Shown: positions 7,537-57,277 of the stretch, piece by piece
How positions within the stretch are numbered: the first letter of the stretch is position 1
Layout: every line of letters starts with the position of its first letter
DNA from: a virus
Taxonomy: Duplodnaviria; Caudoviricetes
Direction: 5' to 3' (one strand)
Length of the DNA stretch: 57,730 bases
Virus record (IMG/VR): IMGVR_UViG_3300037755_000790
Span: 1 to 57,730 of that record
Translations under genes and position numbers: made by a program
The notes under the pieces: generated by a model
The model's input: the letters and a program-made list of their open reading frames with translations, nothing else
Told to the model about the DNA's origin: nothing
Databases searched by the model: none

Positions 7537-7546
7537 GGGATTGCGC

Positions 7547-39512: not shown

Positions 39513-40348
39513 GACGCCACCCGCTCGTCCTCGTCGGCGCTGCGCCGCTCGGCTTCACGTTGCGCTTCGATGATCGCCTGCTGCGCCATGTACCGGTCAT
39601 ACGTCAACGAGAACGTCTTGATGTGACCGAGCTTCACGGCCGTGTTCACCCATATGGGGATACCGGCGAAGCCAGCCCGGAAGCAGAACGTGATGTCCTC
39701 GGACATGCGCCGGCCGTAGAAGTCCGTCTCCTGGAACCAGGGGTACGCGTCAGAGAACCCCACCATCCCCGGCCGCTTCGGGGTTCGGAAGTCCCGCACC
39801 CTCGCCAGCACCGACCGGTGGATCAGCAGGCAAGCCGCGCCGGTGGCGTGCACCTCGAACATGGAGTCCAGCGGAAAACGCTTGTAGCGGATGAACTCCG
39901 GCCGCTCCAGCGTACCGACCACGTCATAGAGCGTTGGCTCCAGTTCCGCCGTCTCCGACAGGGTGAAACAAAGGCCGCCGATGATCGGGGCCTTGTCCTC
40001 GTCGGCGAACTCGAGGAGCTTCTCCACGGTGTCCGGCTCGAACGTCATGTCCGAGTCCAGGAACAGCAGCCACGGCGCCGAGGAGTACTTCAGGAACTTC
40101 TCGCACACCTCGTTACGGGCCGCGCTGACGTTCGCTGAGGACACCTGCGACACGAACCCGCCTCGGCCACCGGTCACGTGCTTAGGGCCACGCGTCGACT
40201 CGTAGTCCACGAGGCCCAGGACGGACTCCATGAACTCACCGTTCACGTGACTCGGGCGCACCCAGGCCACGACGACTCCCTCAGCCTCCGCCTCGGCCGG
40301 CTCGTCGCACGCGGACGCGTCGGTGGGACTTACTTCCACTTCGGACAT
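39509..40348 (-). CDS. glycosyltransferase (GT-A, DxD)
   Basis: ARN....FL, LFLDSDM, G..CLLIHR.V, SEDI.FC, GHIK. Confidence 0.85.
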   Translation of the reverse strand: MSEVEVSPTDASACDEPAEAEAEGVVVAWVRPSHVNGEFMESVLGLVDYESTRGPKHVTGGRGGFVSQVSSANVSAARNEVCEKFLKYSSAPWLLFLDSDMTFEPDTVEKLLEFADEDKAPIIGGLCFTLSETAELEPTLYDVVGTLERPEFIRYKRFPLDSMFEVHATGAACLLIHRSVLARVRDFRTPKRPGMVGFSDAYPWFQETDFYGRRMSEDITFCFRAGFAGIPIWVNTAVKLGHIKTFSLTYDRYMAQQAIIEAQREAERRSADEDERVAS

Positions 40349-40457
40349 TAGGGACCTCCAGGTAGGCGGGGTTCCCGGACTCCTGGCGTCCGGGAACCCC
40401 TTCCCACAGGGGCGACCTGTGGGGCACGTCTCGCTCGCTCGGATGAGAAAAGCGAAG

Positions 40458-40463
40458 TACTAT
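40458..40463 (+). promoter_or_regulatory. -10 box for the pentamer-array cassette
   Basis: TACTAT in an AT-rich patch 11 nt before the first GGC unit; -35 weak (TCGCTC). Confidence 0.5.
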
Positions 40464-40474
40464 GAAGCGACGGG

Positions 40475-40587
40475 GGCGTGGCATGGCAAGGATGGCTGGG
40501 CCGGGCGCGGCATGGCAGGGCGTGGCAGGCGCGGCTGGGCGTGGGTTGGCGGGGCAGGGATAGGCGAGGCGTGGCCTGGCGCGGCCC
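40475..40587 (+). repeat. GGY-NN pentamer array A (putative guide RNA)
   Basis: 23 units, mostly GGC+NN: GT AT AA (A)T TG CG GC AT AG GT [A] GC TG GT TT GG AG TA GA GT CT GC CC. Confidence 0.9.
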
Positions 40588-40632
40588 ACAAAAGAAACAC
40601 TTCGAACCGAACGGACCCAGGGAGGGCTAGCA

Positions 40633-41181
40633 GTGAGCACAGATCAGCAGGTCTCCGACGACGAGACAGCCGTCGAGACCGAACAGGTCGCCGAGACGCA
40701 GCACCAGCAGAAGGAGCGACTCTCGGCCGAGGAACACGACGCGCTCGAACGAGTCGCGAAGGACGACGTTGACGGGCTCATCCAGCCCGAGATGGTGGTG
40801 GAGATGGCATCGGACCCGGCGTCGCCGCTGCACAAACACTTCGAGTGGGACGACGGCAAGGCCGCACACGCCCACCGGATCGCTCAGGCCCGGTACCTCA
40901 TCGCCCGTTACACGATCACCCGCATCGACGAGGGGCCGAAGTACGTCAACATCACGATCCGCAAGGACGACGGATCGTCGCGCCGCGGCTACGTCGCCGT
41001 GGAACGGGCCGTCGCGGACCCCGACCTCTGCGGCCAGATCATGGCCGACGCGAAGCGAGGGATCGTCGCCTACCGCAACCGGCTCTCGGCCTTCGAACGG
41101 TCACGAGCGGTCGTCGGAGCGCTGGATGAGGCCATCGGTCGCATCGACGAGGTCGTCCAGGACCTGAGCGAGGCGGCTTAG
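40633..41181 (+). CDS. partner protein of the RAMP-like cassette
   Basis: GGGAGG RBS; P..VV..A.DP.SPLH..FEWDD..AA..HR..QAR.LI motif. Confidence 0.8.
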   Translation: MSTDQQVSDDETAVETEQVAETQHQQKERLSAEEHDALERVAKDDVDGLIQPEMVVEMASDPASPLHKHFEWDDGKAAHAHRIAQARYLIARYTITRIDEGPKYVNITIRKDDGSSRRGYVAVERAVADPDLCGQIMADAKRGIVAYRNRLSAFERSRAVVGALDEAIGRIDEVVQDLSEAA

Positions 41182-41183
41182 CC

Positions 41184-41786
41184 ATGCCCGAGATCAGGCT
41201 GGAAGTCGTTCAGCGGGAGGTAATCGACGTCGAGATCATCGGCGTGAGTCCGCTGATCCCGCACAAGTGGTCGGAGAAGTCGCTCCGCATGATGCGCGAG
41301 TCGCAATCCGGCAGCAAGGCCCGCAAGAAGCACGACCCGAAGGTGCCGGTCGACGAGGCCGAAGGGGCGCTGTACCGGCTCGCCGATGGTCGCCCGGCGA
41401 TGCCGGCGACGGCCTTCAAGGCGGCCATGGTCGGCGCGGCCCGACTGTTCCAAGGCGTCACGATGACCGCGCTCAAGGCGGCGGTGTTCGTGCACGGCGA
41501 AGGATCGGACCAACTCGTCCCGATCGAGGGCGAGATGACGCTGCGGGAGGACACGCCGCGCAACGCGACCGGGGTGGCGGACCTGCGGTACCGGTACGCG
41601 TTCTGGCCGTGGCAGACCACGCTCCAGATCGAGTACCTGACCGCGATGGTCGACAAGGACTCGGTCGTCGCGCTCGTCGACGCGGCCGGCAACGGCGGAG
41701 TCGGTGACTGGCGGCCGTCGGCCCCCAAGTCGCTCACGGGGACGTTTGGAAGGTTCCGGGTGGCATCACTCGGCGCTGTGGGATGA
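41184..41786 (+). CDS. RAMP/Cas7-like protein
   Basis: first strand I.G.SPL, P..AFK.A...AA helix, R.R..F..W, and C-terminal Gly-rich loop AG.GGVGDWRP.....G.FGRF.V. Confidence 0.7.
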   Translation: MPEIRLEVVQREVIDVEIIGVSPLIPHKWSEKSLRMMRESQSGSKARKKHDPKVPVDEAEGALYRLADGRPAMPATAFKAAMVGAARLFQGVTMTALKAAVFVHGEGSDQLVPIEGEMTLREDTPRNATGVADLRYRYAFWPWQTTLQIEYLTAMVDKDSVVALVDAAGNGGVGDWRPSAPKSLTGTFGRFRVASLGAVG

Positions 41787-41793
41787 TCGCCCG

Positions 41794-41975
41794 GACGAGG
41801 CGTGGCCTGGCTGGGTAGGGCGAGGCTTGGCAAGGCCGTCAAGGCCAGGAATGGCGCGGCGGGCTTGGCGTGGTAAGGCATGGCACGGCGAGGCGGGGCT
41901 CGGTAGGGCGTGGCAGGCTAGGCGAGGCTGGACTCGGCACGGCATGGCGGGTCAGGGCGTGGAATGGCACGGTGC
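41794..41975 (+). repeat. GGY-NN pentamer array B (putative guide RNA)
   Basis: 37 units: GA GT CT TG AG GA TT AA [C] AA CA AT GC [G] TT GT AA AT AC GA GG TC AG GT [A] TA GA TG TC AC AT GG AG GT AT AC GC. Confidence 0.9.
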
Positions 41976-42009
41976 AGGCCCCGGAGTTTCGGCTCCGGGG
42001 CCTGCTTCG
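41974..42009. terminator. hairpin between array B and the convergent MCP stop
   Basis: GCAGGCCCCGGAG-TTTCGG-CTCCGGGGCCTGC, perfect 13-bp stem. Confidence 0.8.
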
Positions 42010-42012
42010 TCG

Positions 42013-43720
42013 TTATGCCAAGGCCGTGAAGGCCGGAGTGGTGTGCAAGGTCAACATTCTGAAAGCCGCTGGGTCGACCGTGTCTGCCCCCACGCGCCAG
42101 AAGCCATACCACCCGGCCTGGCCGGTCGGCCGCTGGTTCGAGCCCTTGACCATCGGCTCGTACATCATCGAGAACCCGATACGATCGACGATGACGTATC
42201 TCTCGAAGTTGCCAGCAAGCAAAATGTTGGCCGACGTGGTGACCACCGAACCCATGGTGCTGCACTCGTACTGCGGCTGGCCGAGAAGCAGCGACGGGAC
42301 GCCCATGCCCATCGACGCCCAGAACGCGCTGCCGCCACTGGTATCGAACTGGCGGACCAGATTGTAAATCGTTTTGTTCGCAATCCACGACGCCTTGCTC
42401 GCGTCACGAGGACGGAGAGCGTTGGCGACCCGGTACACGTCGCCGGACACGAACGCCGTGATAGTGGCGGACGACACCAGGGACGCGGTGACGGCCGCGA
42501 CAGCGGCGACGATGCCGCGGGGGATGGTCGCGCCGGTGTTCCCGGTCGCGAAGGCGGCCGCTTCCAGGTTGGCCTTAGCGTCGGCCATGAGCATCGACAG
42601 CTCCGACGCGAAGCCCGAATCGGCGAGAACCTCGTAGGAGCCGACAACCCAAGCGTCGGCCTTCTTGGGTGTGATCGTGGGCTGCGTGAAGGTCGGGGAC
42701 GCGTCGGCGGCCTCGGTTCCTTCACCGGTCCATTCCGCCGTGACGCCGGCGCTCGTGACGCCGTTCCAGTCATCGGTGACGATCTGCTTGACCGTCGAGA
42801 TGGACCGGATCGGGTCCTGTGTACCGGCGTTCGTGAGGATGATCGTCGGGTCGAGCGTAAACGGGACGAGATACATTGTTGTTACTCGATACCTTGCGGT
42901 ACCGGGCCCGGTCATTTCTGCCGGGCTCTGCATCTTTTCCATCGATGCAGATCGGACTATATCTTCAGCTCCAGTCCCGACCAGCTATACCGGCTGGGCG
43001 GACCTCTCGGAGTTGCCACGCGTGTAGTCTCTACGGACTCCCCGGTACGGGTTGCCTCGGTATTCCCCTGCTTTGGTGGGGTTCACCGATACAGCGCGGT
43101 TTATTACCTCCGGGTCACCCGCAGAGGACGGCCACTCGACCGCCGTTGGCGCCGGTGAGGGACAGGGCGGCACGCATGAGCTGCCCCGGGTACGTCCCCA
43201 TCGACTGCCAGTACTCCTCGAACTCGCGGTGGTACTCGTCCGAGCCCGTCATCAGCAGGTGGCGGGCGATGCCCGACGTCTGCGGTGACGGCTTGTCGAG
43301 CAGCCGCATGACGTGCTCACGACCCGCGTCGTCCATGTGGCCGGGTGCGATCTCGACGGCCTTCTTCGCCCGCGAGATCATGTCGGCTTTCGGTGCGAGT
43401 TCGGCCCGGACGACCTCGTAGTTGTCGTACGGGTCGACGGTCCGCATGATCTCCGGTCCCTTGCGGGCCAGAGCGGTAGCTCCGTCGCCGGACTCGCGGT
43501 GTGGGCTGGCGAGGACGGCGCTGCGGACAGCCTCCGCCTTCGTCTCCCACGCCTCGGCCTTGGTCCGCTCGGCCTCGAGCTGAGCGAACTCGTCGGGGAT
43601 CTCCTCGGAGCGGGCGATGTCGTCGTCTTCCCAGTCCTGCTTGTCGGTCAGCTCCGCCAGTTCGGCGCGGAGCACCTCCATGTCGGCGGCGTACTCCGCT
43701 GACGTCTTTCGCTTAGCCAC
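42013..43720 (-). CDS. HK97-fold major capsid protein (exons 43139-43720 and 42013-42873; 480 aa spliced)
   Basis: splicing restores NGG|YLVP; W.GE, LLG.P, GNF..Y.IVDRIG, R.G....DP.AF; N-terminal delta domain. Confidence 0.92.
42874..43138 (-). mobile_element. group I intron (265 nt, no ORF)
   Basis: P1 GGCGGU/GCCGUC with U.G at the 5' splice site; core elements GUAUCGGUGAA, AAUACCGAG, GUAGAGACUA, AAGAUAUAGUCC; terminal G. Confidence 0.92.
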
Positions 43721-44453
43721 GGGGGGCTTCCTTTCGGGCCAGCCACATGCGCGCTTGCGCACGGGCGAGGTAGTAGTCCCGGTCGGAGTGCCCGTTGGGC
43801 GGCTCTTCGGCGTCGGCGTCCATGGTGGACGTGACGGGATACGTCTCCGGCTCCTGTGGAGTGGTGGACGGTCTGAGCGCGGCGAACAGGTCCGTCACGC
43901 GTGAGCGGACGGCGAGGATCGCCGCGGCGGCGTTGACCGGTACGGGGGTGGGGCCGTAGTCGGACAGGCCGAGTTCGTGGCGGGTGACGGTCGGTAGGTT
44001 CCCGGTACGTCCCCGTGGTATCTGCGTCGGGGTCGAACGGACGATCTTGCCCCGGAAGGACTGGGACCGGATGGCGCCGTTGTCGATCGCCTCGAGGATC
44101 CGGTCGATCTCCGGGCCCCGGTTGTAGCGGGTGATCGTCTTGAGGCCCTTGGAGTCGGGGGTGATCTCCAGTGGTGTGCCGATCGGCACCGACCACGTGT
44201 CAGATGGCGATCCGTGGACCGTGAGTCCGTGGTTGTACAAGCACATGACCCTGGAGATCCCGCCGTCTTTCAGCGTCTTGTTGAACGCGGACCGTTCGAC
44301 GACCTCCATGTAGTGCCCGTGCTGGTCTTTGACCTCGTACGGGTGGTTGAAGACGGCGGCGTACGCCTCGACGGTGCGGCCGTCGGTGTGGGCGCGGGAG
44401 ATCTCGATGTCCTCCAGGGGCCACCAACGTTCGTAGCGAAGGATTTCAGCCAC
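43713..44453 (-). CDS. HK97-family prohead protease
   Basis: AYAAVFN, E.....AF.KT, LYNHG, QSFRG, L..YGP...P. Confidence 0.9.
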   Translation of the reverse strand: MAEILRYERWWPLEDIEISRAHTDGRTVEAYAAVFNHPYEVKDQHGHYMEVVERSAFNKTLKDGGISRVMCLYNHGLTVHGSPSDTWSVPIGTPLEITPDSKGLKTITRYNRGPEIDRILEAIDNGAIRSQSFRGKIVRSTPTQIPRGRTGNLPTVTRHELGLSDYGPTPVPVNAAAAILAVRSRVTDLFAALRPSTTPQEPETYPVTSTMDADAEEPPNGHSDRDYYLARAQARMWLARKEAPRG

Positions 44454-44474: not shown

Positions 44475-47400
44475 TCATGATGCGAAGACGTCGATGACGC
44501 AGCGGGTGGCCACTTCGGCGGACAGCAGCTCCCCGAGGTCGGGTGCTAGGCGGTCCTGGAGTACGGCCCACGGGGTGGGGGAGGTGGCCCACAGGTTCAG
44601 GCCGTCGCCCTCCGTCCAGAAGGTGAGGTCGGACCGGTAGGTCATCCGCCGCCGATGGGTGCGCCGAGCCGGGGTCGTGGGCGTCTTGGCGCGGGTCATG
44701 GCGGCCATGGACATCAGCGAGTCGGGTGGGTCCTCGTCCATCTCGCGATAGAGGGACACGATCTTGCGTGCCGCTGACCGCTTCTGATCAGCCGACGCGT
44801 CGACGGCGGACAGTCGGCCGGCGGCGGCGTGGACGCCGTTGCGGTTCAGCGTCCCGTCGGGCTCACGGACGGGTAGCTTGCACAGTTCCTTGCTGTACTC
44901 GTCCTGGCCTTCCGCCGGCTCATCGTGGATCAGGCACGCGGCTCGCCACTGCTCGTCGTCGTAGTCGGCCTGCGTGAACTGCGACCACGGGGTGTCCGAG
45001 AACGACCGGGACCGGTACTCCTCGTCGGGTTCCTCGCCCATCTCGGCCGCGTCCTCGACGTCCGTTTCGTCTTCTTCGCCGAGGGGGATGTCGGTCACCT
45101 CGTCGCCGAACGCGACCCGGATGTGGGTCAACGTCACCGGGCCGGCGAGGTCGACGAGGTCCTCGAGCTCGGCCGGGTCGTCGGTGTACAGCAGCGTGAT
45201 GTGCGGATGCCAGGGCGTGTGCTGGTCGGGGAGGTCGAAGTCCAGGTCGTCGATCTCGTCCTCGACGAGGGCATGGGCGGATGCCAGATCCTCACCGGAG
45301 ATGAGGAGGACGTCGCACGGCTCGTCGCCGTTGGGGTTGAACATGGCCAGCGAGAAACCGTCGACCTCGAGCACGTCTTCGAGGTCGTCGGCGACCGTCC
45401 GCGCGGCGTCGATGATGGCGGCACGCTGGTCCTCGTCGTAGTCGTCCGCCTTGCCGAGGAACAGGAGCGTGACGTGGAGCTGGTCGGCGTCCTCCCCACC
45501 TTCGACGGCGAGGCGTTCGAGGTCCGCCGGGGACGGGACGAGGGCGATCATCGCGCCGGTGTTCTCATCCGGGTACTCGGCGCGGGTGATGTCGACGTCG
45601 TCCGGATCGGTGATGGAGCGCTTCGCGTCGCGCTTGAGGAACTCATCGAGCGGAAGGGTGGAGACCAGATACCGGGATGCCGCCTGATGGCCGAGCCCGG
45701 CCGCGATGGCCTCACGGTACTTGTTCGGCCGGCCGTCGTTCGGGTCGGGCAGTTCGACAACCGCTCGGTGCAGAATCTCCTCTAGCCGTTTGGACGTCGG
45801 CGAGGCGACCCCGCGATTCCGGCTGGTCTCCTCATCGATGGCGCGCCCTAGTGCGGCGATGCCGGCCTCCGACCCGACGCCCTGCTGTAGCGCGTGGCGC
45901 AGGTCGAGTTGTGTCGGTTTGGTCAGGCCGTCTCCGCCGGAGAACGCCTTCACGCTGACGCCGAGCTCGCCGGACGTCGCCACCGTAGACGGAGCGGGCG
46001 AGTCGTTGTCGAGGATGGACTGGATGTCCGCCTCAAGTTGGCGGGTGACCGCCCAGTGCGCTGGTTCCTCCCACTCCTCCGGCGACGGCGCGTCGCCGGT
46101 TGTCTCCCGTGCTACCTGGAGTACCCGGTCCCGGTCGGTGCCGCCACCCGTCCGGGCCTGGTAGGCGTCCATCGACTGGAGGATGTGACGGATCCGCGCC
46201 TCGCGTGACCGTGCCGACGACGGGATCGGGGGGAGGTTCAGCGCGACGTTGATGCGCTTCAACTCGGCCGCGGACTTGGTGTGCAGGACCGTTTCGGCTT
46301 CGTCCATCGGGCCGCCGAGAACAGACTCGCGGGCCTTCGGGGCCGCCTTCGCCGGGGATGCCTTGGTGGGCGGGCCGCCCACGGCGTCGAGGCGGTCCGC
46401 GAGTTCGACGTACCTGTCGGCGCGGCCGAGAGCGCCCTGCCGGGTGCCCTGCCGGGGGCTGATCGACGCGACGGGCAGCCTGGCCGCGCCTTCGCGCATC
46501 CCGGCGGCTTCCTCGCGCAACGCGGCGGCAATGGACTTGGGGCTGTCGCCGTCGTCGAGTCGGGCCTGCACCTCGTCGAGTACGCCACGGTCGATGTCCA
46601 TGTCCTTGGCGATCTCGCGGGCGTTCAGACGCGGAGTGGAGTCCGATGGCGTCGTGGTGGTCTTCGGGGCGACCGCCTTGGTGGCAGCCTTCGCGACCTT
46701 CTTTGGCGCGGCCGGCTTGGCCGCGTCGGAAGCGAGGGCCCGCATGGCGACCTTGATCTGGTCGGTGTCTTTGTCCTGCTCGTCCTTCGGCAGCTCGGCG
46801 AAGGGGACGTCCAGATCCCCGCCGGCAGCCCAGTCGTTGCGTGACAGCCACGCCTTGTGGATCTCTTCGCCAACCTCCAGGCGTGTCTTCTCGTCGCTCA
46901 GGTCTACGGTGCCGCCGCGCTGCTTGAGGATGCGCTGGACGACTTCGCCGGCGGCCTTGTTCTCGGCCTGCCAGTCGCCGGGCAGATCGTCGTAGCTGGT
47001 GTTGGCGATGTCCACTTCATCGGAGTCGTGCGCGTCGATCCACTTCTGGTCCTTGGTCTTCTTGACGCGTGGCTCGAATGTCCCGTCCGCCTGCTTGCGG
47101 GTCTTGCGCCAGTCCTCATGCAACGCGTTGGCGATCTTGGCGGACTCGACCTGATCCGCACTCCCAGTCGACTTCTTGGCGGGCGTCGCCTTCTCCGCGG
47201 CGGGCCGCACCGTGTCGTGCGTCGCCGGAACGTTGCCGATGAACGTCTGATCCGGACGGTGTAAAGAGGGGCCGTCGATGTCCCATCCGCCGGGCAGACC
47301 ACGATCGCGGGCGAAGTGCTCCGCGATGTGGAGCTGCAGCGCGCTCTTGGCTTGCAAAATGCCCGGCGGGACGTCGATGCCCAGTCCGTCGGCGACCTTG

Positions 47401-47903
47401 CGGAGCTTCGCTGACGTGAGGCGCGTGTCGCCGCTCAGTAGCGCGATGACCTCGGCCTCGGACTGGGCCGCGGACACCTTGGCCACCGCGTCGGCCACCT
47501 CTACGGCGGCGGCCTGCTGGGCCTTCGTCTTCGCCGCCGGCTTGGCTTCTACCGCGGCCTTCTCCACCGACTTCTTCGCGGGCGCCTTCTTCGCCCCGGC
47601 GGCCTTCATCGCGGCCGGATGTGTGGCGCCCTTCACGCGCTCGGCCTGATACCGCTTCCGGTCATCTGGCGACAGGGCGTCGTACTGCTCCCGCTGCGGC
47701 ACGGTGAGCTTTCGCATGCCCGACGGGATGGTCACGCCGATCGCCAGCCCGTAGTGTGCCGCGCCCTCGGCGCTGATCACCTGCCGGCCGGGGGCCGGGT
47801 TGCTCCTCCCGCCACGGGCGCGCGCGATCTCGCCATCCATCCGCATCCGCACCAGCGCCATCCGCGCCACCGCGCGTGCCCGAGGAACCGTGGACGTGGT
47901 CAT
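44475..47903 (-). CDS. polyvalent head-associated protein with 2H phosphoesterase and RyR-repeat-like domains
   Basis: LHVTL and PHITL (2H); H..W...Y..LP / H..W...VPF.EL...EQ.KD repeats; CKLPV.EP.G.LNRNGVHAAA domain. Confidence 0.8.
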   Translation of the reverse strand: MTTSTVPRARAVARMALVRMRMDGEIARARGGRSNPAPGRQVISAEGAAHYGLAIGVTIPSGMRKLTVPQREQYDALSPDDRKRYQAERVKGATHPAAMKAAGAKKAPAKKSVEKAAVEAKPAAKTKAQQAAAVEVADAVAKVSAAQSEAEVIALLSGDTRLTSAKLRKVADGLGIDVPPGILQAKSALQLHIAEHFARDRGLPGGWDIDGPSLHRPDQTFIGNVPATHDTVRPAAEKATPAKKSTGSADQVESAKIANALHEDWRKTRKQADGTFEPRVKKTKDQKWIDAHDSDEVDIANTSYDDLPGDWQAENKAAGEVVQRILKQRGGTVDLSDEKTRLEVGEEIHKAWLSRNDWAAGGDLDVPFAELPKDEQDKDTDQIKVAMRALASDAAKPAAPKKVAKAATKAVAPKTTTTPSDSTPRLNAREIAKDMDIDRGVLDEVQARLDDGDSPKSIAAALREEAAGMREGAARLPVASISPRQGTRQGALGRADRYVELADRLDAVGGPPTKASPAKAAPKARESVLGGPMDEAETVLHTKSAAELKRINVALNLPPIPSSARSREARIRHILQSMDAYQARTGGGTDRDRVLQVARETTGDAPSPEEWEEPAHWAVTRQLEADIQSILDNDSPAPSTVATSGELGVSVKAFSGGDGLTKPTQLDLRHALQQGVGSEAGIAALGRAIDEETSRNRGVASPTSKRLEEILHRAVVELPDPNDGRPNKYREAIAAGLGHQAASRYLVSTLPLDEFLKRDAKRSITDPDDVDITRAEYPDENTGAMIALVPSPADLERLAVEGGEDADQLHVTLLFLGKADDYDEDQRAAIIDAARTVADDLEDVLEVDGFSLAMFNPNGDEPCDVLLISGEDLASAHALVEDEIDDLDFDLPDQHTPWHPHITLLYTDDPAELEDLVDLAGPVTLTHIRVAFGDEVTDIPLGEEDETDVEDAAEMGEEPDEEYRSRSFSDTPWSQFTQADYDDEQWRAACLIHDEPAEGQDEYSKELCKLPVREPDGTLNRNGVHAAAGRLSAVDASADQKRSAARKIVSLYREMDEDPPDSLMSMAAMTRAKTPTTPARRTHRRRMTYRSDLTFWTEGDGLNLWATSPTPWAVLQDRLAPDLGELLSAEVATRCVIDVFAS

Positions 47904-47956
47904 GCCACCCCCGAACATGGTTGAGCCCCGTTGGAGGCTGAGGAACGGAGGAAGGG

Positions 47957-48241
47957 TCAGTTGTCGAGTAGCTGGGTGACGCGGTCGATCTGCGCCCGGA
48001 CCCACGCGTCCGGGGCGTTGAGCCACGGACCCTCGACGAGTTCCAGCAGGATCGGGCCGCTCGCGTCCGGGTCGAGGCCCGCGCCGTGGTGGGCGAGTGC
48101 GTTGATCAGCGTCCCGATCAACTCGTACCGCTTGGTGCGGCCGGCGTACAGCGCGCCGTACAGCAGCCGGCGGGTCTCGTCGAGGTCCTTCGACTTCGAC
48201 GCGTCACGCGTCGTCAGCGTGTAGTCATCCCACGCGGCCAT
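47957..48241 (-). CDS. hypothetical protein
   Basis: GGGAG RBS. Confidence 0.6.
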   Translation of the reverse strand: MAAWDDYTLTTRDASKSKDLDETRRLLYGALYAGRTKRYELIGTLINALAHHGAGLDPDASGPILLELVEGPWLNAPDAWVRAQIDRVTQLLDN

Positions 48242-48541: not shown

Positions 48542-49057
48542 CTAGCCGGGGCCGATGAGTTTGCCGCGGGGTTTGCCGCCCTGGGCCACCCGATGGGCGT
48601 CGGATCCGGCCCACAAGCCAGTCACGCTGTGCAGCCACTGGGATGCCATGCGTTTAGCCCTGGCCGAGCCGACATGCCGACGCAGCAATCTATAGAGGGT
48701 TGTCCATTGGTGGCGGGACTTGATCCACCGTTTTAGTCCGGCCCCGTGGGTCCAGTACTCGCGGAGCTTGTACCGGTTCCCACCCATGGCCCGCAGGATC
48801 TCGTCGTCCTCGTCGAGACCTTCAGCCCGCGACAGTTCGTCGAGTAGCGCCTCATCCAACTCCGCCGCGAAGCCGTCGGCCGTCCAGCCGGAGGCGAGCG
48901 CGTCGAAGGTCCGGTCGTCGTCCCAGCCGTTCGCCGACTGCGCTGACCGGAACAGGTCCCAGCCGGGAGCGTCGAAGAACTCAACACCATCGTCGGTGGC
49001 CGCGATCGTGCCAACCGTGGCGCCGGTCGATGTCTCAACGATGGCGAGCCGGATCAT
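48542..49057 (-). CDS. head-associated protein (acidic N-half, basic LREYWT.G.G...W domain)
   Basis: ATGA-coupled to the portal gene. Confidence 0.7.
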   Translation of the reverse strand: MIRLAIVETSTGATVGTIAATDDGVEFFDAPGWDLFRSAQSANGWDDDRTFDALASGWTADGFAAELDEALLDELSRAEGLDEDDEILRAMGGNRYKLREYWTHGAGLKRWIKSRHQWTTLYRLLRRHVGSARAKRMASQWLHSVTGLWAGSDAHRVAQGGKPRGKLIGPG

Positions 49058-52000
49058 GGTCTACCCACCGTCCACTGGATGATCAAGTCGACCAGTTGGG
49101 CCTTCGTCGACTTCGACCCGTAGGCGATCTCCGCCGAGTCGGCTATGGCCTTGAGTTGGTCACGGGTCCCGGTGAGCATGGCGCGGGCGTCGTTGCGGCT
49201 CGTCGCAGTGCGGAGTTTCGCCACCGTGTCCGCTGGTGACTCGGTGGCCTTCGCGGCCTTGGTGGTAGCCACTGTGAACTGATCGCGGGACAGGTACTCG
49301 GTCGTACGACGCCCGTCCTGCGCGACCGCGTCCACCTCGTAGATGGCCTCGGCGCCTTCGCCGGTCACCGACCTGACCGTGCCCGAAGTGGCGTAGCTCC
49401 CGGCGTTCGGCTTGAGCGCCACACGGCTACCGACCAATGCGCTGGCTCCGGTGGCCTTTGCTGCTCGGGGTGCTCTCTTCGTAGTGGGGGGCGCGGGGGA
49501 CGCCTTGGTGGGTGCGGCCATGGACCGGAACTCGGCGACGAGTCGAGCCGCCGCGTCGGCGCCTACCTGTTCGCTGACACGGACGACCTCTTCGCTCTGG
49601 TCGCCGGGGAGGTCGGCCCACTCCTGCCGGTCGATGAGCCTCTTCGGCCCCGGTTCGCCGCCACTCACGGCTCGCCACACCGCCAACGCCACGTCCCGCT
49701 GACGGTCGAAGGCGATCACCGACTCCGGGCCGGCGGAGGTAGGGCCCTCGACGCGTTTAAGTGCCGCCTCGACATTGCGGCGGGTGAAGGCGCTCAGGTC
49801 CGGATTGGCCAGTTCGGCGCGCGCCACCTCGGCTTGCAGTGCGTTGTTCCTCGCCGCCGCCCGCGCTCTGGCGGCCGTCTCGATGGCCCATACCGCGGAC
49901 CGTGCGGCGTACTGCTGGGACTCGGGTAGCCGCTTGATCGCCGCGTCACCCGGAATACCGTTGGCCTTCTTCAGCTCCGCGCGCTCAGCCCGGATGGCCT
50001 CGTCCTGGCTCACGAGTCCGCCCGCCGCTTCGATGGCCGCGCGCATACGCGCCAACGACGCCGCGTGGCCGGCCCGGTCGAGTTCGGTTCCGTGGCTGTA
50101 CTCAGACTGCGACGGGAGCGCTTCCGCCGTGCGTCGTGCCGTGGCGGCGCGTTCGGCCAACGCGTTGAACGCCTCGGCCTCGTCGCGGTCGTCGGCGTTG
50201 GAGTCCGCCCACTGTCGCAGGTCCCGTTCAAGCCTCGTGAGGCCGGCCACGGTCGAGTCCTTGTTGTGAATCCACCCGGTAGCGGACGCGCGGTCAAGGT
50301 CTCGTTCGTGGCTGGTGAGGGCGCCGCCGAGTTGGGTCCGGGCCTGGGTGTTCATCTCGCGCAGCGGGTTGGCCGGCGTAGTGGGCGCCGCCTTCGCTGC
50401 TTTCGGGGCTCGTCCTGCGGCTACCTTCTTCACCGCGGGAGATGGAGAGGATGGCTCGAAGGTGAGTTCGCTGACGTCGGTCGGGTCGAGCTGTTGGCGT
50501 CGGCCGCCTTCCCAGTCGACGAAGATCTTCGTGCCGGTCCGTGTCACCTTGCCCCGGACGGGTTCCTCGCCGCGGGGCGCCCACACCGCCGTGTCCCCCG
50601 TCTTAACGTCCGGCAGCAGCCCCTTCGCCGAAGGGATCACCCTACGCGGTGGTGGGGGTAGCTTCGGTGCCGCCACGTAGCCCGACAGACGATCAGCGGA
50701 CACCATGCCGCCAGTGCCGTCCGCGAACTCGACCCACTGAGCACTGCCGCCGCCCGCCGTTCCGGACGGGTCACGGTCGTCGGGGCCAAGGTAGGTGACC
50801 TCACCCTTGGTGTCGTGGATCAGCTTGTCGCCCGGCTTCCAGCCCGACAGGATCTGAACATCCTTCGCGACGTGGCCGGTCAGCGCCTGCTTGGCTTCTC
50901 CTCCGTCTGGGGTACCGGGGACAGCGGGGAGTGGTGTCGGGGTACCGGGGAGTGGGCGAGGAGATGGGTCGTCGATCCAGAGCCAGTTCTTGTCCTGGCC
51001 ACCGATCCGAGCCGACGCGGCGCTCTGCTGTTCGTCGGGCATGCCGACCACCCGGTCCGGGGTCAGGTTCACGCCCGGCTGGACCATCATGCGCTTCAGC
51101 GCGGCATCTACCTCAGCCCTCGGCAGGTCCCTCAGTCCAGGCTCCGCACGGAGATCGGAAAGCAACACCGCGCCGGTGTCCCGAAGGTCGACGTTGGACA
51201 GCGGAGTGTGGGGTCGCGCCTTCAGCGCGGCGGCCGCCTCTCGGATACGGTTCTCTACCTGCACCTGACGTACGGCTGGATCACTCGACAGGGGCTCGTG
51301 GGCACCCTTCGGTGCTGGGTCGGCGTTCTCGATCGCGTCAGCCAAGCGCCGCAGCGTCTTGACGTCGTCGTCGCGGATCGCGTCAAGGTGCCGCTGTCCC
51401 GGCTCAACGTTGACCTGAGCCTCACCGGGCAGGATCGGGCGGCCTTCCAGCGCGTCCGCGGCTTGGCGCAGTCGCGCGGCGACGTCGCGCGGGTCCTTGC
51501 CGGTGCTGTATCCCCTACGCGCATCCCCGACCGCTTCTTGGCCGGGTCTGGTGAAGCCGTCGCTTTCCTGGCCGAGGAGCGCCCTGAACGCCTTCCGGCG
51601 CTGCGCCTGAACTGTCGGGTCAGCGGATACCTCTCCCGGCGTCGCGGTCTGCACGACGGCCTTCGCTACTGAGACCCGTTCCCCGTCGAGGTCTACGTCA
51701 TACCCTGGCCGCACCACCGTGACCTGCGTGCCGGACGGGATGTCCTTGCCGATGGGCTTGTGCCTGCCACGGTCGAACGGCTCCACGGCGCCCGCTGGGC
51801 CGGTGACGCGGTGCAGGCCATGCGCAGCTGCGATCCGGTCGATGGCCGCGTCTACCCGGGTACGGTCACCGGACGTGCCCGCCTGGACCAGGTCGTCGAT
51901 CAGCGCCGGGTCGAGGTTGTTGAGCTTCCCGCGGGTGCGGATACGGGACTCCATGGCCCTCGCGGAGGCGCCGTTGGAGGACAGTTCGTCGAGTTCGGAC

Positions 52001-55000
52001 AGTGTCTCGGCGACGCCACGGGCCTTGTCCGCTCGGACTTGACGCTCCCGTGCGGCGTCCTCCAACGGGTTGACGTCAACGTCCGCTACGGTTCCCGGTC
52101 CGACACCCGGCGTACCAAGATCAGCGTCGGTGTCGGGCTTGTCCGGGACGCCGCCCTTGCTCTTCAGCTCCGGGTGACGTTCGCCGTAGCGTCGCGCCCA
52201 GTCGGCCAGCTGCGTCTCGCCACGGTTCCTGGCCCATGCCTCAAGGTCGTCGAAGTCGTCGACGGTGACGACCCGCTTGTCCCGCGTCGCTGTCTTCGGC
52301 CCCGCCGAGCCGGTACGTAGCGTGGTGACCGCCACCTTGCCGTCGCGGGTGCCGTGGACGAGGACGTCCCGACGTGTTCCGTCCTCGTCGCGGATCGTCA
52401 GCAGCGGAATCGGCGCCTTGTCCGGGTCGGTCTTGTCGACCTTGCGGTACGACTCCCGCGCGTCGGCGAGCAACGCGTCTTTGATGTCGTCGATCGTCGC
52501 GCCCCGCCGGAGCTTGATTCCCGGCCGGCCCTGGGCGACCTTGCGCAGCGACTCGCGGTTCGTGAACTCGCGTAGCGGATCGTCGTCGCCTTCACCGCGC
52601 AGCCACCCGGCGAGGGCTGTCGCGACCCGTTCGGCGACGGTTCGGAACTTCCCCTCCCGGCCACGTGGGTGCATGGCCTCCTGCGCCGGCGTCCAACCAC
52701 GTGTCGCGTCGGGGATCGGGGTCTCGTCGCCGTCAACCTCGTCGAGGCTCTCGTCGGCGGGGACCGACTTGTGATCTTCGGTGATGTACGCCATGTCCCG
52801 CAGCGCCTGCGCCACATCCCGCGCGTCGGCGTCGGCGAGCTCTACCTCGTGGTCGCCGAAGCGGACCGCCACTCCACCCTCGTACGGTTCGCTGGCGAAG
52901 GAGTGGCGGGTGTACGGCTGACCGGACTCGATCGCGTCAGCCCAACGCCGCGCCTCAACAGCGGACGGGACAGCGTGGATCGCGACGTCGGAACCCGAGT
53001 CCGACTCGACGGTGACGTCCCGCTCCCGGGCCACGATCCGGGCCCGGTCGCCGAACTCGACCGAGTCGACCTCCCGGCCGTACTCATCGTCAACCGACTC
53101 CGCCGGCAGCAGCGCCAACGGTGTGGTCGGGATCCAACCATGGCGGTAGCGGTACCCGCGGGTGATCTCTTCGACGTGGTCCCACACCCACGCCAACGCC
53201 CGCGTGGACACGTCGTCCTCGACGGGCTCCGCGTCCGTCGGCTCTTCGTGGGCTGGTGTGCCGTCGGAGTAGACAGGCCCATCGATGACAGGCTCACCAC
53301 CCTCAGCGGGTGGGGTCAGCTGCACCGACGTCAGGCCGGTGTGGACGAGGACCGTGATGTCGTCGTTGTGGACCATGTCCACCGAAGACGCCGGCGTGAA
53401 CCCCTCACGGGTGAGCGACGCGATAACCGACGCCCGCGTCTGCTGGATCTCGGCGAGGTCCTTGGCGTCCTCGTGCAGGAACGGGATGTCACGGGCGTCG
53501 TACCAGAGCCGGTGCTTCGGCTCCGGCGGCGGGAACAGGACCTGAATCGACCCGCACCAGTTCTGCCACAAATCCCGCATCGTGGTGTCGACGAAGTTGC
53601 GCTTCGCCGACACGTAGTTGCCGGCGTTCAGGCTGGAGCCCTGCATGCCCTCGGAGAACGACAGCAGCGTCGGGGGAACCCCGCCGCGATTCGCGATGCG
53701 TGTGTTGTGCGTGGGTACGAGGCCCTCGCCCGCGAGGAAGAGGTGGTCGGCGGTATCAACCGCGATACAGCGAACCGGGACGGACGCGACGGGCTCGATC
53801 GAGACCACCGACCGGGACCACGTGGATGGGTCGCCCGCCATTTCGCAGCGATCAACCTTGCGCGGGAGCAGGAACGGGATCCGGTCCATCTCCACGCGGA
53901 ACGTGACGAGCCAGTGCTCGCCCGTACGGGACCTGGCGTCCGGCTTGCGACGTAGCGAGGCGCGGTAGCCGAGCGAGCGAACGAGTTCCGCCACCTGCCG
54001 GCCCAGTGCCTCAAGTTTGCTGCTGAACTGGCACTGCCCCTGCACGCCGACAGTGCCATCCGTGTCCATGAGACCGCGTAGAAGTTCCAGGCGCTGCGCG
54101 GCAGATCCGCGCAGATACCGGCCGGGGACGTGCTTGTTCCCCAGTACGCCCTCCGCGCGGAGGGCGTGGAGCAGGCCGCCGGGGACGCCGATCACGTCGA
54201 CCTTGTCGGCAGCCGTCGACCATGATGTCGTCGTGTAGCCGCGGGCTTCCAACTCGCAGGCGATGAACTTCAGATCATCGCGGGCGCCGCAGATCGCGGC
54301 TCCCGCGGTCTGGCCATCGCCCAGCCAAGCACCCAATACATACGGATCTATCAGCAAGTCGGCGTCCGGCAGTTCCAATACCGGCGTACGTGGCAGCGAG
54401 AAGCGGTGACCACCGACACCGTTGGGGTACGGAGCGCCGAGGATATCGAACATCTCCTGCGTGGAGTACACCCGCTCGGCACGGCTCGCGGTACCCCTGT
54501 CGGTCGCAACCCACAGGTGTGTGGCGTCAGCAACGATCGACGTACGGTCCTTGAGCATCACCCGGTAGCAGGCTCGGCCCTCATGGATCGGACCGACCTG
54601 AAGCACCGTCCCCGGCCGCCCATCGCGGCCCATGACCTGATCGCCAACACGGACCTCGCCCATCGTGGTCCAGCCGGTCGGAGTCGGAATCGGCGTGTTA
54701 AGCGCCAGAGGTTCGCCCTTGCCCTGGACCGCGGCGAAGTCCATCTGCCGCATGTCGCCGCCGATGACCGTCACGTCCGCCCCGCCGGCCGTGTACAGGG
54801 TCTTGCCCACGTTCGCCGGGCCTTTGTGGGCGGCGTCCATCGCGTCGACGAACTCTTTGAACTGGTCCGGGGTCATCTGCTGCGGCACCGAAACGGCGAG
54901 GTTAGGCGATGCTGAGTTCTCAAAATAGGTGACTTTGTGCTCGCTGGCCTGCCTGTCGGCCTGGACCTCGCGGACGATCGGCGTGAGCCACGACATGCCC

Positions 55001-55675: not shown

Positions 55676-57277
55676 TTAGCGCCACGCGACGAGAGGAACG
55701 GAACTGTTGGGCGGGGGTTCGGGTGCGGTCACGAACCCGTAGACGGCGTTCGTCGCGGCCACCAAGGGGCTGATGTCGACGGACTGATGGCGGCGGTCCC
55801 ACGACGTCCCGTCACCCACACGTCGCTTCGCCGCCCCGGCGACGGCGAGAGTCAACGCCGGATGCGGACGGACCTTGACGTCACGGACCACGACGGGCTC
55901 AACGTCCCCGGACGCGGGTTCCGGATCCGAGTCGATCGACGGCTCATGGACTGGGTCGTCCTCGGCGTCCGGCTCGCTCGACACCCCGTCGCGGAACATT
56001 CCGTACGCCGCCGCGACCTGCCGGCCGGTGAGTTTCGTCAACTCGATCCCGAGCGGCTTCAAGCCCTCTTCGATGTCCGGGATCAACGACCCAGCCGCGC
56101 CCGCCGGGTCGACGACTACCGCGCACGGCTTCCACCGTCGGCACAACTCCACCAGCCGGCCGACGGCCCACGACGTCCCGGGCCGATGGTCGACGACCTC
56201 GGCGTGCAGATCCCCGTCCGCTCTCGAGCCGGCCACCGCGATGGACGAGGCGGAGCGTTCGGGATTCAGGTCCAGTGCGAACGCCACCCGACCGGCCGCC
56301 GAGGTTTGACCGTCCTTCGTCGCCTCGAGCCAGTCGGCTTCGGAGATGACCTTCCAGAACGTCGTCCCGACCGACGTCGCGACATTGCCGTACGCCCGCC
56401 GGAACTCCATCGGCTCCATCTCGGCGCGCTCCTGGCGGATCGCGTCCAAGGATGTGATCGTGTGCCGCCACGCCTCGCCCCTACCCGCACAGCGGCACGG
56501 AGGGCGCGGACACAGCGCCGGCATGAACGTGTAGTACGACTCCTCGTCGTCCGGATCCCAGTCCTTCGGCGCCGACCATTCGAAGTACGCCACCCCGACA
56601 CCGACGTCCGCCTCCACCGAAGCCCGCCCGGTGTCGACCTTGCGGTTCAGGATCAGCGACGCCTCAGTCCCGGCCGTGGAGCACACCAGCAGCTGCGCGT
56701 CCGGGATGGTGATCATCGCCGGGCGGAGGCCCTGCTCCCGGCGGTCGTCGGTGTCGTGCCAGACCTCGTCCATCACGGCCTGATGCAGCGTCTTGCTGTG
56801 ACCCGACGACGTGGACGTGGAGAGCAGCCGTATCAACGAGCCGGTCTTGAACCGGATCGACTCGTTACCCATCCCCTCGTTGATCACCAGACGGGACCCC
56901 GTCGTCGCGACGAGACTCTTCAGCTGCGAGTTACGGATCAGCGGGAACAGCTCGTCGATCCACTTGTCCCGCGCGTCCTTGCCGGTCTGCGCGGTGAACG
57001 CCGAACGCTGCGGATGCCGCCAGCGACGAGAAACACAGCGATTGATCTGCCACGACAAGAACAGCGAAGTCTTGCCACTCTGCCGCGGCACTGTGACCCG
57101 GACCTCGCGGTACGCCGGCAACCCCGTGACCGGATCGATCTCCCCGCCGACATCCGCCACCAGGTGCTGCCACGGCATGAACGGCTGGCCGAGCTTCTCG
57201 GCGACGACCGCCAGCTCCGGCCCGAACGTCTCCCGCTCAGGTCTACGGCGAGTCGCGTACCGGGGCGGACAACTCAT
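55676..57277 (-). CDS. terL: terminase large subunit
   Basis: MPWQ, Walker A VPRQSGKT, Walker B AVMDE, STAG, FALD, DISPL.A. Confidence 0.92.
   Translation of the reverse strand: MSCPPRYATRRRPERETFGPELAVVAEKLGQPFMPWQHLVADVGGEIDPVTGLPAYREVRVTVPRQSGKTSLFLSWQINRCVSRRWRHPQRSAFTAQTGKDARDKWIDELFPLIRNSQLKSLVATTGSRLVINEGMGNESIRFKTGSLIRLLSTSTSSGHSKTLHQAVMDEVWHDTDDRREQGLRPAMITIPDAQLLVCSTAGTEASLILNRKVDTGRASVEADVGVGVAYFEWSAPKDWDPDDEESYYTFMPALCPRPPCRCAGRGEAWRHTITSLDAIRQERAEMEPMEFRRAYGNVATSVGTTFWKVISEADWLEATKDGQTSAAGRVAFALDLNPERSASSIAVAGSRADGDLHAEVVDHRPGTSWAVGRLVELCRRWKPCAVVVDPAGAAGSLIPDIEEGLKPLGIELTKLTGRQVAAAYGMFRDGVSSEPDAEDDPVHEPSIDSDPEPASGDVEPVVVRDVKVRPHPALTLAVAGAAKRRVGDGTSWDRRHQSVDISPLVAATNAVYGFVTAPEPPPNSSVPLVAWR

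What the first reader, a model, noticed from the sequence alone, without database searches (positions are those of the whole stretch)
41916..41975. Array B last segment decodes to capsid peptide YECSTMGSV(I)T
The NN string TA GA TG TC AC AT GG AG GT AT AC GC gives Y-E-C-S-T-M-G-S-V-I-T-A. The MCP sense strand at 42270-42235 reads TAc GAg TGc AGc ACc ATg GGt TCg GTg GTc ACc ACg (YECSTMGSVVTT). Eight of 12 dinucleotides are identical and 10 of 12 residues are compatible. The two complete mismatches are both serines written in the opposite codon family.
Basis: seen in the sequence. Interest (0 to 1): 0.92.

Follow-up and report, generated by a model that had tools for sequence, protein, structure and literature searches.

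The report
VIPR guide RNA targeting capsid genes
The repeat is a guide RNA of the recently described phage "VIPR" gene-silencing system; its variable letters match the capsid gene of this phage's relatives (and its own less well) while skipping every third base, so the apparent "peptide code" is a by-product of that pairing rule.

Summary
The 12 GGCNN units at 41916-41975 carry NN dinucleotides that equal codon positions 1-2 of the phage's own capsid (MCP) gene at 42270-42235(-) in 8 of 12 units, in frame. This is the only such hit in the window, and permuted guides never reach it.

It is not a peptide code. The locus is a VIPR system, described in three 2026 bioRxiv preprints:
- a Cas7-like Vipr protein (41184-41786);
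- an accessory gene (40633-41181);
- two flanking "staggered" arrays of GGY/NN guide RNAs (vrRNAs), which pair with DNA two bases at a time and skip every third, usually the wobble base.

The guide fits MCP alleles of related phages better (21/24 informative bases) than its own (18/24). Sister guide A-iii (40528-40587) has perfect 22/22 targets in four metagenomic MCP genes. A third guide, B-iii, hits the antisense strand of the same gene.

The "serine swaps" are ordinary allele differences, because both serine codon families occur at those columns in relatives. No perfect target was found for the finding's own guide, and no RNA data exist.

Verdict: a new member of a known kind. The modest new points are capsid-gene targeting among sibling phages and near-self matches of 75-86%.

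The parts
40475..40587 (+). vrRNA array A, 5' of the accessory gene. It holds staggered guides A-i 40475-40494 (4 units), A-ii 40494-40528 (7 units) and A-iii 40528-40587 (12 units). Neighbouring guides share one G.
   Evidence: GGC at 5-base spacing occurs only on the + strand and only at the two arrays in the window. Parse with 4-base 'stagger' units.
40528..40587 (+). Guide A-iii. [quoted passage not shown]
   Evidence: 22/22 in L063, L067, L147 and L155; 20/22 in 32 loci; own gene 19/22. Last unit matches 0/99 relatives.
40633..41181 (+). Candidate vipr-accessory (vap) gene, 182 aa, phrog_15946.
   Evidence: PHROG E 1e-27. A homolog lies next to vipr in 10 of 17 related loci, downstream of vipr there. 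AF2 model pLDDT 79.8 with no significant PDB fold match, best E 0.15.
41184..41786 (+). vipr gene, 200 aa, a Cas7-like single-RRM RAMP (phrog_4652).
   Evidence: A profile of 14 homologs hits PDB 36pp_D 'SUSP1 Vipr protein' at E 1.7e-7, with the G-loop GVGDWRP identical. AF2 model pLDDT 80.9. Top PDB folds are Csm3/Cas7 at E 2e-6, and 73 matches have E<=0.001.
41794..41975 (+). vrRNA array B, 3' of vipr. It holds staggered guides B-i 41794-41838 (9 units), B-ii 41838-41862 (5), B-iii 41862-41916 (11) and B-iv 41916-41975 (12).
41916..41975 (+). Guide B-iv, the finding itself.
   Evidence: Own MCP 18/24 bases (8/12 units). Best relatives 21/24 (10/12 units). Shuffled-guide maximum 16-18 in 905 kb.
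41862..41916 (+). Guide B-iii. It matches the antisense strand of the conserved MCP motif FTLDPTIILT, and the skipped bases again fall on wobble positions.
   Evidence: 20/22 in L145, L148 and L152; 19/22 in 14 loci; 18/22 in 77 loci and in the own gene. Shuffled-guide maximum 15-17.
41974..42005 (+). GC-rich 14-bp hairpin shared by the converging VIPR and MCP transcription units. It is a likely terminator and/or the 3' end of the last vrRNA.
   Evidence: RNA fold of 41955-42015: -38.6 kcal/mol, z -4.75, 0 of 200 shuffles as good. The consensus terminator scan did not call it.
42235..42270 (-). Imperfect own-gene protospacer of B-iv in the MCP gene (YECSTMGSVVTT).
42619..42654 (-). Imperfect own-gene protospacer of A-iii in the MCP gene (AWVVGSYEVLAD).
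42830..42862 (+). Imperfect own-gene protospacer of B-iii, antisense to MCP codons 27-38 of the 309-codon ORF.
42013..42942 (-). HK97-type major capsid protein ORF, the gene family that three of the seven guides match.
   Evidence: Pfam PF05065 E 7e-39; PHROG major head protein.

Best explanation
The stretch 41916-41975 is the last guide (B-iv) of a staggered vrRNA array of a VIPR (Viral Interference Programmable Repeat) system carried by a temperate actinobacteriophage.

Mechanism, taken from the literature on the SUSP1 system and not shown here: Vipr protomers polymerise on the RNA, one per GGYNN unit. They bury GGY and present NN. The NN pairs bind double-stranded DNA two bases at a time, and every third target base is flipped out. 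Binding represses transcription.

Shown here: the locus has the Vipr protein, an accessory gene and GGC/NN arrays on the coding strand. Three of its seven guides match the HK97-type capsid gene family by the 1-nt skip rule, with the skip on the wobble base.

Inferred: the cassette is an insertion between the capsid and glycosyltransferase genes. It serves to silence the capsid gene of related, competing phages. The carrier's own capsid gene is a poorer match (75-86% of informative bases) and presumably escapes.
For: 1. Protein. A profile of 14 homologs of the 41184-41786 product hits 'SUSP1 Vipr protein' (PDB 36pp_D) at E 1.7e-7. The motif GVGDWRP is identical, and an arginine aligns with SUSP1 R138. 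According to paper 10.64898/2026.04.26.720927 (section 4, part 1 read), D177, W178, R179 and R138 contact the two guanines and the pyrimidine. The AF2 model has pLDDT 80.9 and its best PDB matches are Csm3/Cas7 at E 2e-6.

2. RNA. GGC at 5-base spacing occurs only at the two arrays, only on the + strand, flanking the two genes. 16 of 17 loci with a Vipr homolog carry such arrays, always on the gene's strand. Segments between 4-base stagger units (GGCA in 62 of about 87) are mostly 9-13 units long. This fits the published range of 9-16 units and the 'staggered arrays' with 1-nt overlap.

3. Targets.
- B-iv: 21/24 in L026/L027/L138, L035/L136, L056, L057 and L060; own gene 18/24.
- A-iii: 22/22 in four loci; own gene 19/22.
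- B-iii: 20/22 in three loci.
- Shuffled-guide maxima are 15-19.
All three are wobble-aligned. The paper reports the same bias.

4. Where the guides disagree with the own gene, relatives carry the guide's state: TCC/TCG Ser, ATC Ile and TTC Phe.

5. Insertion. In L026 (MCP 80% identical) the MCP gene is followed directly by the glycosyltransferase homolog (60% identity), with no arrays. 0 of 105 MCP-relative loci have arrays, vipr or vap within their flanks of at most 1.5 kb.
Against: - No perfect target for B-iv. The best is 21/24. The exact pattern of its first 9 units gives 0 hits in viral contigs. It gives 3 hits in genome contigs, all with an in-frame stop in unrelated low-GC genomes.
- No RNA evidence. 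No RNA run holds the stretch, so transcription, processing at the stagger points and Vipr binding are not shown.
- The consensus scan found no promoter or terminator.
- Two guides match the carrier's own MCP at 82-86% of informative bases. That is above the >=80% cut-off at which the discoverers found no self-hit. Self-silencing is therefore not excluded, and mismatch tolerance is unknown.
- Own-unique codon states are not enriched in the three protospacers: 1/34 against 7/250, Fisher p 0.64. There is no statistical sign that the own gene evolved away from the guides.
- The accessory protein has no significant structural match, and I could not show that it belongs to vap1-6.
- Guides of five related whole records show no above-null match in their own genomes. 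That fits non-self targeting, but their targets were not sought.
Confidence: 0.87

Rival explanations
1. Self-regulation. The guides are meant for the phage's own capsid gene. VIPR would throttle or time its late expression, for example by keeping it off in the lysogen.
For: Three guides have their best in-window hits in the own MCP gene at 75%, 82% and 86% of informative bases. Two of these exceed the 80% cut-off used in the discovery paper. The cassette sits next to the gene and the phage has an integrase.
Against: Other alleles fit better than the own gene for all three guides: 22/22 against 19/22, 21/24 against 18/24, and 20/22 against 18/22. In the published systems the natural targets are competitors and no self-hits were found. 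Phages with the closest MCP genes manage without the cassette.
Confidence: 0.1
2. B-iv is a decayed or outdated guide with no living target. It is carried along in an array whose working guides are others.
For: No perfect target in 105 MCP relatives or in the exact-pattern scans. Its unit 8 (AG) occurs in only 5/96 relatives and its unit 12 (GC) in 10/95.
Against: Every one of its 12 dinucleotides exists at the right column in some natural allele. The 21/24 match is far above the shuffled-guide maximum of 16-18. The sampled collections are small compared with natural diversity.
Confidence: 0.1
3. Amino-acid code. The NN dinucleotides specify a peptide.
For: 10/12 units are compatible at the amino-acid level against 8/12 identical. 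Both full mismatches are Ser against Ser.
Against: The guide's serine states (TC, AG) and its AT and TT units are the actual codon states of other MCP alleles. One guide matches the antisense strand, where no capsid peptide is read. A nucleic-acid mechanism with exactly this geometry has been solved. No decoding machinery is known.
Confidence: 0.01
4. Chance resemblance between a GC-rich repeat and a GC-rich gene.
Against: The hit is unique in the window. 0/1500 permutations reach 9 compatible and 1/3000 random guides reach 10. Two further guides hit the same gene family. Perfect 22/22 matches exist in independent metagenomes.
Confidence: 0.01

Closest known systems
Type II VIPR of Escherichia phage SUSP1 and the Pseudomonas fulva prophage (bioRxiv 10.64898/2026.04.26.720920, 10.64898/2026.04.26.720927, 10.64898/2026.10.15.759431)
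   Same: A small Cas7-like Vipr protein with the same G-loop motif, plus one accessory gene. GGY/NN pentamer guides lie upstream and downstream of the genes on the same strand. Targets follow the 1-nt skip rule with wobble alignment, lie on either DNA strand, and belong to competing mobile elements.
   Different: Only 49 profile positions align significantly with SUSP1 Vipr. No conserved 3' tail or pseudoknot lies between guides; instead the guides abut with a 1-base overlap. The host is an actinobacterium-type high-GC phage. The targets are capsid genes of sibling phages rather than a satellite recombinase, prophage regulators or vipr genes. The carrier's own gene is a near-match at 75-86%.
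VIPR 'staggered vrRNA arrays' (legend of fig. S18 of 10.64898/2026.04.26.720920; figure not held)
   Same: Neighbouring guides overlap by one nucleotide, so the end of one is the start of the next. Here GGCA(G) is followed by GGC.. at 40494, 40528, 41838, 41862 and 41916. Relatives show the same pattern.
   Different: The paper states that the ribozyme-interspersed and single-vrRNA forms were confirmed by sRNA-seq, but not the staggered form. I could not see which VIPR type or taxa the figure shows. Here the perfect A-iii match starts at the first unit after the stagger point and stops after unit 11. That is computational support for these boundaries.
Class 1 CRISPR backbone proteins (Cas7/Csm3) on crRNA
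   Same: RRM/RAMP fold with a G-rich loop and a thumb. One protomer binds per fixed number of guide bases, and pairing is interrupted periodically. The top fold matches of the model are Csm3 chains.
   Different: CRISPR flips every 6th base of a contiguous spacer. VIPR hides 3 of every 5 guide bases and skips 1 of every 3 target bases. There is no repeat-spacer array, no Cas1/Cas2 and no other cas genes in the window region examined.

Membership tests
VIPR system | Vipr protein: a minimal RAMP (single RRM, G-loop, thumb) of about 20 kDa | tested here: met
   200 aa. Profile hit to SUSP1 Vipr (36pp_D) at E 1.7e-7 with GVGDWRP identical and an arginine aligned to R138. AF2 model pLDDT 80.9, best folds Csm3/Cas7 at E 2e-6.
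VIPR system | Tandem GGY/NN (YNNGG) pentanucleotide repeats in the intergenic regions flanking vipr, on its strand, 9-16 units per vrRNA | tested here: met
   Arrays at 40475-40587 and 41794-41975, + strand only. Segments have 4 to 12 units, four of them with 9-12. Arrays are present in 16/17 related loci.
VIPR system | Natural targets found by the 1-nt skip rule at >=80% NN match, with skip bases on wobble positions | tested here: met
   A-iii 22/22 (4 loci), B-iv 21/24 = 88% (5 distinct relatives), B-iii 20/22 = 91% (3 loci). All are wobble-aligned and lie above shuffled-guide maxima.
VIPR system | Adjacent vipr-accessory (vap) gene | tested here: inconclusive
   A 182-aa gene abuts vipr and its homolog neighbours vipr in 10/17 related loci. 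No significant fold match.
VIPR system | vrRNAs are expressed, processed and bound by Vipr; the complex binds DNA and represses transcription | not testable with these tools
   No RNA run holds the stretch. This needs sRNA-seq, pull-down and reporter assays.
VIPR type II (SUSP1 clade) | Each vrRNA ends in a conserved structured 3' tail (a pseudoknot in the SUSP1 clade) | tested here: not met
   Guides abut with a 1-base overlap and no tail between them. Only array B ends in a hairpin. The locus therefore works like type II but is not filed as type II. Its type (I-VII) could not be assigned.
VIPR staggered-array architecture | Successive vrRNAs share one nucleotide at their junction | tested here: met
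   4-base units (mostly GGCA) precede a new GGC register at five junctions in the window and at 62 GGCA junctions in the parsed arrays. The A-iii match is bounded by the junction.
CRISPR-Cas | Repeat-spacer array with contiguous spacers and cas genes | tested here: not met
   No such array in the tandem-repeat scan. PADLOC gives no hit for the two proteins.

The most novel reading that the evidence does not exclude
This locus shows near-self targeting. Three of its seven guides are aimed at the capsid gene family of the carrier itself. The carrier's own gene sits at 75-86% identity of informative bases, and two guides are above the 80% line at which the discoverers saw no self-hits.

If the own gene really escapes, then VIPR tells self from sibling by only 2-4 mismatched units. 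These include synonymous serine family swaps (AGY/TCN). Such swaps are a class of silent change, shared with Leu and Arg, that a wobble-skipping guide cannot ignore. They would therefore be a predictable escape route for targets.

If the own gene does not escape, the phage uses VIPR on its own late gene.
Probability: 0.3. Interest if true: 0.6.

Novelty: new member of a known kind. Interest (0 to 1): 0.42.

Why it matters
The finding rediscovers, from raw sequence, the noncontiguous VIPR guide code, so the mechanism itself is not new. This locus adds four things:
- a natural case in a high-GC temperate phage where the targets are the major capsid genes of sibling phages, a target class not mentioned in the parts of the three VIPR papers that I read;
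- computational support for the guide boundaries of 'staggered' arrays, which the discovery paper did not list among the array forms it confirmed by sRNA-seq: a perfect 11-unit match starts at the stagger point;
- a ready test bed for mismatch tolerance and self/non-self discrimination, since own sites at 75-86% can be compared with sibling sites at 88-100%;
- a pointer that 27 Mycobacterium phage records carry 68%-identical Vipr genes annotated only as hypothetical proteins.

Tried and rejected
- **Ring-protein or G-quadruplex idea.** Before the protein was identified I considered a TRAP-like ring protein binding GGC triplets, a small-terminase or centromere DNA site, a Rho-loading site on the opposite strand, and two-tetrad G-quadruplexes. 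All were from recall only. I dropped them when the NN strings proved non-random and the protein matched Vipr.
- **Planted or artefactual sequence.** Rejected. The guide's deviations from the own gene coincide with natural alleles, and an independent contig is identical.
- **Nearby database matches.** Megablast of 40000-43200 against the phage collection gave no match. Rfam on 40300-42100 gave only a sub-threshold SAM-Chlorobi hit at the hairpin, E 0.47. PADLOC gave no hit.
- **Self-decoding in relatives.** In 17 related loci and 5 whole related records nothing exceeds the permutation null.
- **Self-avoidance test.** Own-unique codon states in protospacers are 1/34 against 7/250 outside, p 0.64, so no support. 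The only own-unique state there is F100V: GTC against TTC in 37/37 close relatives.
- **Exact 9-unit pattern of B-iv.** 0 hits in viral contigs. The 3 hits in genome contigs are chance hits with in-frame stops.
- **Eight-unit pattern including the upstream CA.** 11 stretches matched. Only 2 are MCP relatives and the rest are AT-rich chance hits.
- **Expression.** No RNA holder is listed. Run X2 holds only a small share of the stretch, three 151-base contigs in and just upstream of the accessory gene. I draw nothing from it.
- **Promoter/terminator consensus scan.** 0 sites.
- **Accessory protein.** No PDB sequence hit. Best fold match E 0.15. The weak hits, to O-methyltransferase, PadR-type regulator and BLM RQC chains, are not significant.
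- **Closed or unseen material.** Supplements of the three papers are closed. Data S3/S4 and figs S16-S18 may already list this clade, its type and capsid targets. Of paper 10.64898/2026.04.26.720927 I read the abstract and part 1 of section 4 only. For paper 10.64898/2026.10.15.759431 I read the abstract, sections 9 and 17, and found passages. For paper 10.64898/2026.04.26.720920 I read sections 4, 10, 20 and 27 and found passages. For 10.64898/2026.10.21.760802 I saw the search listing only.

Full report
**What is there.**
The window is a whole IMG/VR virus record of 57,730 bases. At 41916-41975 the + strand reads as twelve five-base units of the form GGCNN, three of them degenerate: GAC, GTC and GGA/GGT. 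They are the end of a longer array at 41794-41975. A second array lies at 40475-40587. In a scan of both strands for GGC at five-base spacing, these two arrays are the only such regions, and both are on the + strand.

Between the arrays lie two + strand genes, 40633-41181 (phrog_15946) and 41184-41786 (phrog_4652). Neither has a significant Pfam match; the only listed hit is below its cut-off. On the minus strand the neighbours are:
- an HK97-type major capsid gene, ORF 42942..42013, Pfam Phage_capsid E 7e-39;
- a prohead protease;
- on the other side of the cassette, a family-2 glycosyltransferase.

A 14-bp GC-rich hairpin at 41974-42005 closes array B and faces the end of the capsid gene. 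Its fold energy is -38.6 kcal/mol, z -4.75.

**The observation.**
The capsid stretch 42270..42235 is in frame, since 42942-42270 = 672. Eight of 12 NN dinucleotides equal codon positions 1-2, and ten of 12 are compatible at the amino-acid level.

An exhaustive scan of every position on both strands finds this 8/12 hit once, and the next best is 6/12, seen twice. At the amino-acid level the hit is 10/12 against a next best of 6/12. No permutation of the NN string (0 of 1500) reaches 9 compatible. One of 3000 random 12-mers from the arrays' NN pool reaches 10.

The last run of array A independently hits the same gene in frame at 42654(-), with 9/12 identical and 10/12 compatible. So the match is not chance.

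**What it is.**
A profile of 14 homologs of the 41184-41786 protein matches one PDB sequence, 36pp_D 'SUSP1 Vipr protein', at E 1.7e-7. The motif GVGDWRP is identical and an arginine aligns with R138. The AlphaFold model (pLDDT 80.9) is most like the Csm3/Cas7 backbone proteins of type III CRISPR complexes, with a top E of 2e-6 and 73 matches at E <= 0.001.

A literature search on the PDB name led to three bioRxiv preprints of 2026 on VIPR systems:
- The discovery paper (10.64898/2026.04.26.720920; sections 4, 10, 20 and 27 read) describes a Cas7-like Vipr protein, an accessory vap gene, and flanking vrRNAs of 9-16 YNNGG repeats. Their NN bases pair with double-stranded DNA by a '1-nt skip rule'. 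The skipped base 'overwhelmingly' aligns to the wobble position, targets lie on either strand, and natural targets are competing phages and satellites.
- The structure paper (10.64898/2026.04.26.720927; abstract and section 4 part 1 read) shows one protomer per repeat. GGY is buried by residues that include D177, W178, R179 and R138, and one target base is flipped out per unit.
- The third paper (10.64898/2026.10.15.759431; abstract, sections 9 and 17, and found passages) gives the in vivo role. It notes that some guides score lower on self than on rivals.

**Array architecture.**
The arrays have no tails between guides. Instead a four-base unit, mostly GGCA, is followed by a new GGC register, so neighbouring guides share one G. 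The legend of fig. S18 of the discovery paper describes such 'staggered' arrays with 1-nt overlaps. The figure itself is not held.

In the window this parse gives seven guides:
- A-i, A-ii and A-iii with 4, 7 and 12 units;
- B-i to B-iv with 9, 5, 11 and 12 units.

In related loci the segment lengths peak at 12-13 units. 16 of 17 loci with a Vipr homolog carry arrays, always on the gene's strand, and some run for hundreds of bases. The accessory gene's homolog neighbours vipr in 10 of 17 loci, but downstream of it.

**Targets.**
I fetched 105 loci with relatives of the capsid protein, 80 from metagenomes and 25 from viral contigs. After removing identical DNA, 100 remained.

| Guide | Best matches in relatives | Own gene |
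|---|---|---|
| B-iv | 21/24 informative bases (10/12 units) in five distinct relatives: L026/L027/L138, L035/L136, L056, L057, L060 | 18/24 |
| A-iii, first 11 units | 22/22 in L063, L067, L147, L155; 20/22 in 32 loci | 19/22 |
| B-iii | 20/22 in three loci; 19/22 in 14; 18/22 in 77 | 18/22 |

B-iii matches the antisense strand of the conserved FTLDPTIILT motif, again with the skipped bases on wobble positions. Shuffled guides reach at most 15-19.

The twelfth unit of A-iii matches 0 of 99 alleles, so it probably does not pair.

Where B-iv and A-iii disagree with the own gene, relatives carry the guide's state: TCC/TCG serine, ATC isoleucine and TTC phenylalanine. Both serine codon families occur at each of the three serine columns:
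- codon 102: TCN 87, AGY 4;
- codon 228: TCN 54, AGY 8;
- codon 232: TCN 11, AGY 5.

The 'opposite-family serines' are therefore allele differences, not a device.

**Context.**
In the closest capsid relative (L026, 80% identity) the capsid gene is followed directly by the glycosyltransferase homolog (60% identity), with no arrays. None of the 105 capsid loci has arrays, vipr or vap within its flanks. The cassette is therefore an insertion in opposite orientation.

The phage has a tyrosine integrase at 7343-8401, so it is probably temperate.

My reading, which is inference: the cassette silences the capsid gene of related phages that meet the carrier in the same cell.

**Results against, or left open.**
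- No perfect target was found for B-iv.
- There is no RNA evidence and no consensus promoter or terminator.
- Two guides match the own gene above the 80% cut-off at which the discoverers found no self-hits. Self-silencing is not excluded.
- Own-unique codon states are not enriched in the protospacers: 1/34 against 7/250, p 0.64.
- The accessory protein has no significant fold match.
- The VIPR type could not be assigned because the supplements are closed.
- Guides of five related whole records show no above-null hit in their own genomes. I did not search for their targets.

**Verdict.**
The mechanism has been in print since April 2026, so this is a new member of a known kind. The locus is still useful for three reasons: capsid-gene targets among sibling phages, near-self matches that could calibrate mismatch tolerance, and support for the guide boundaries of staggered arrays.

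Noticed in passing
window 42874-43138 (-), inside the capsid gene: The capsid gene seems to be split by a group I intron. Rfam RF00028 matches 42928-43148(-) over the full model at E 9.5e-9, but at 40 bits it is below the gathering score of 50. The upstream ORF 43762..43115 aligns with the N-terminal 193 residues of the 480-aa L026 capsid protein up to ...NGG. The 309-aa ORF aligns only from LVPFTLDP onward. The roughly 265 bases between begin after a T and end in G. L026 and L035 have uninterrupted ORFs. The B-iii protospacer starts about 12 bases after the inferred 3' splice site.
   Followed up: partly
L053:14052-14078 (+), that is record G005 at about 54052: Guide B-i (9 units) has its best hit, 16/18 informative bases and in frame, in a terminase large subunit gene (phrog_2, E 3e-19) of a provirus that itself carries VIPR arrays. 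Shuffled guides reach 13-15 in 10 trials, so this is borderline.
   Followed up: partly
public phage records, e.g. hits H31-H57: 27 Mycobacterium phage records and 5 Gordonia phage records encode Vipr homologs: 68% identity in the Mycobacterium records listed and 42-43% in the three Gordonia records listed. All the listed ones are annotated 'hypothetical protein'. The window's capsid protein has no isolate relative above 45% identity.
   Followed up: no
L022 2707-6004 and L018 4062-4749: Some related loci carry very long guide arrays. L022 has ten array blocks spread over 3.3 kb around vipr. L018 has about 690 bases of units, including a repeated block. Their targets were not sought.
   Followed up: no
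window 49054-55665 (-): A single 2203-aa ORF has PHROG matches to portal protein (residues 99-311) and to families labelled terminase large subunit (residues 253-658). It lies next to a separate 545-aa terminase large subunit ORF at 55676-57313. This is an unusually large fused head-morphogenesis gene.
   Followed up: no
window 44475-48026 (-): A 1183-aa ORF beside the prohead protease carries a 2'-5' RNA ligase / LigT phosphoesterase domain at residues about 820-986.
   Followed up: no
window 7343-8401 (+): Tyrosine integrase (phrog_1, E 5e-27). The phage is probably temperate.
   Followed up: no
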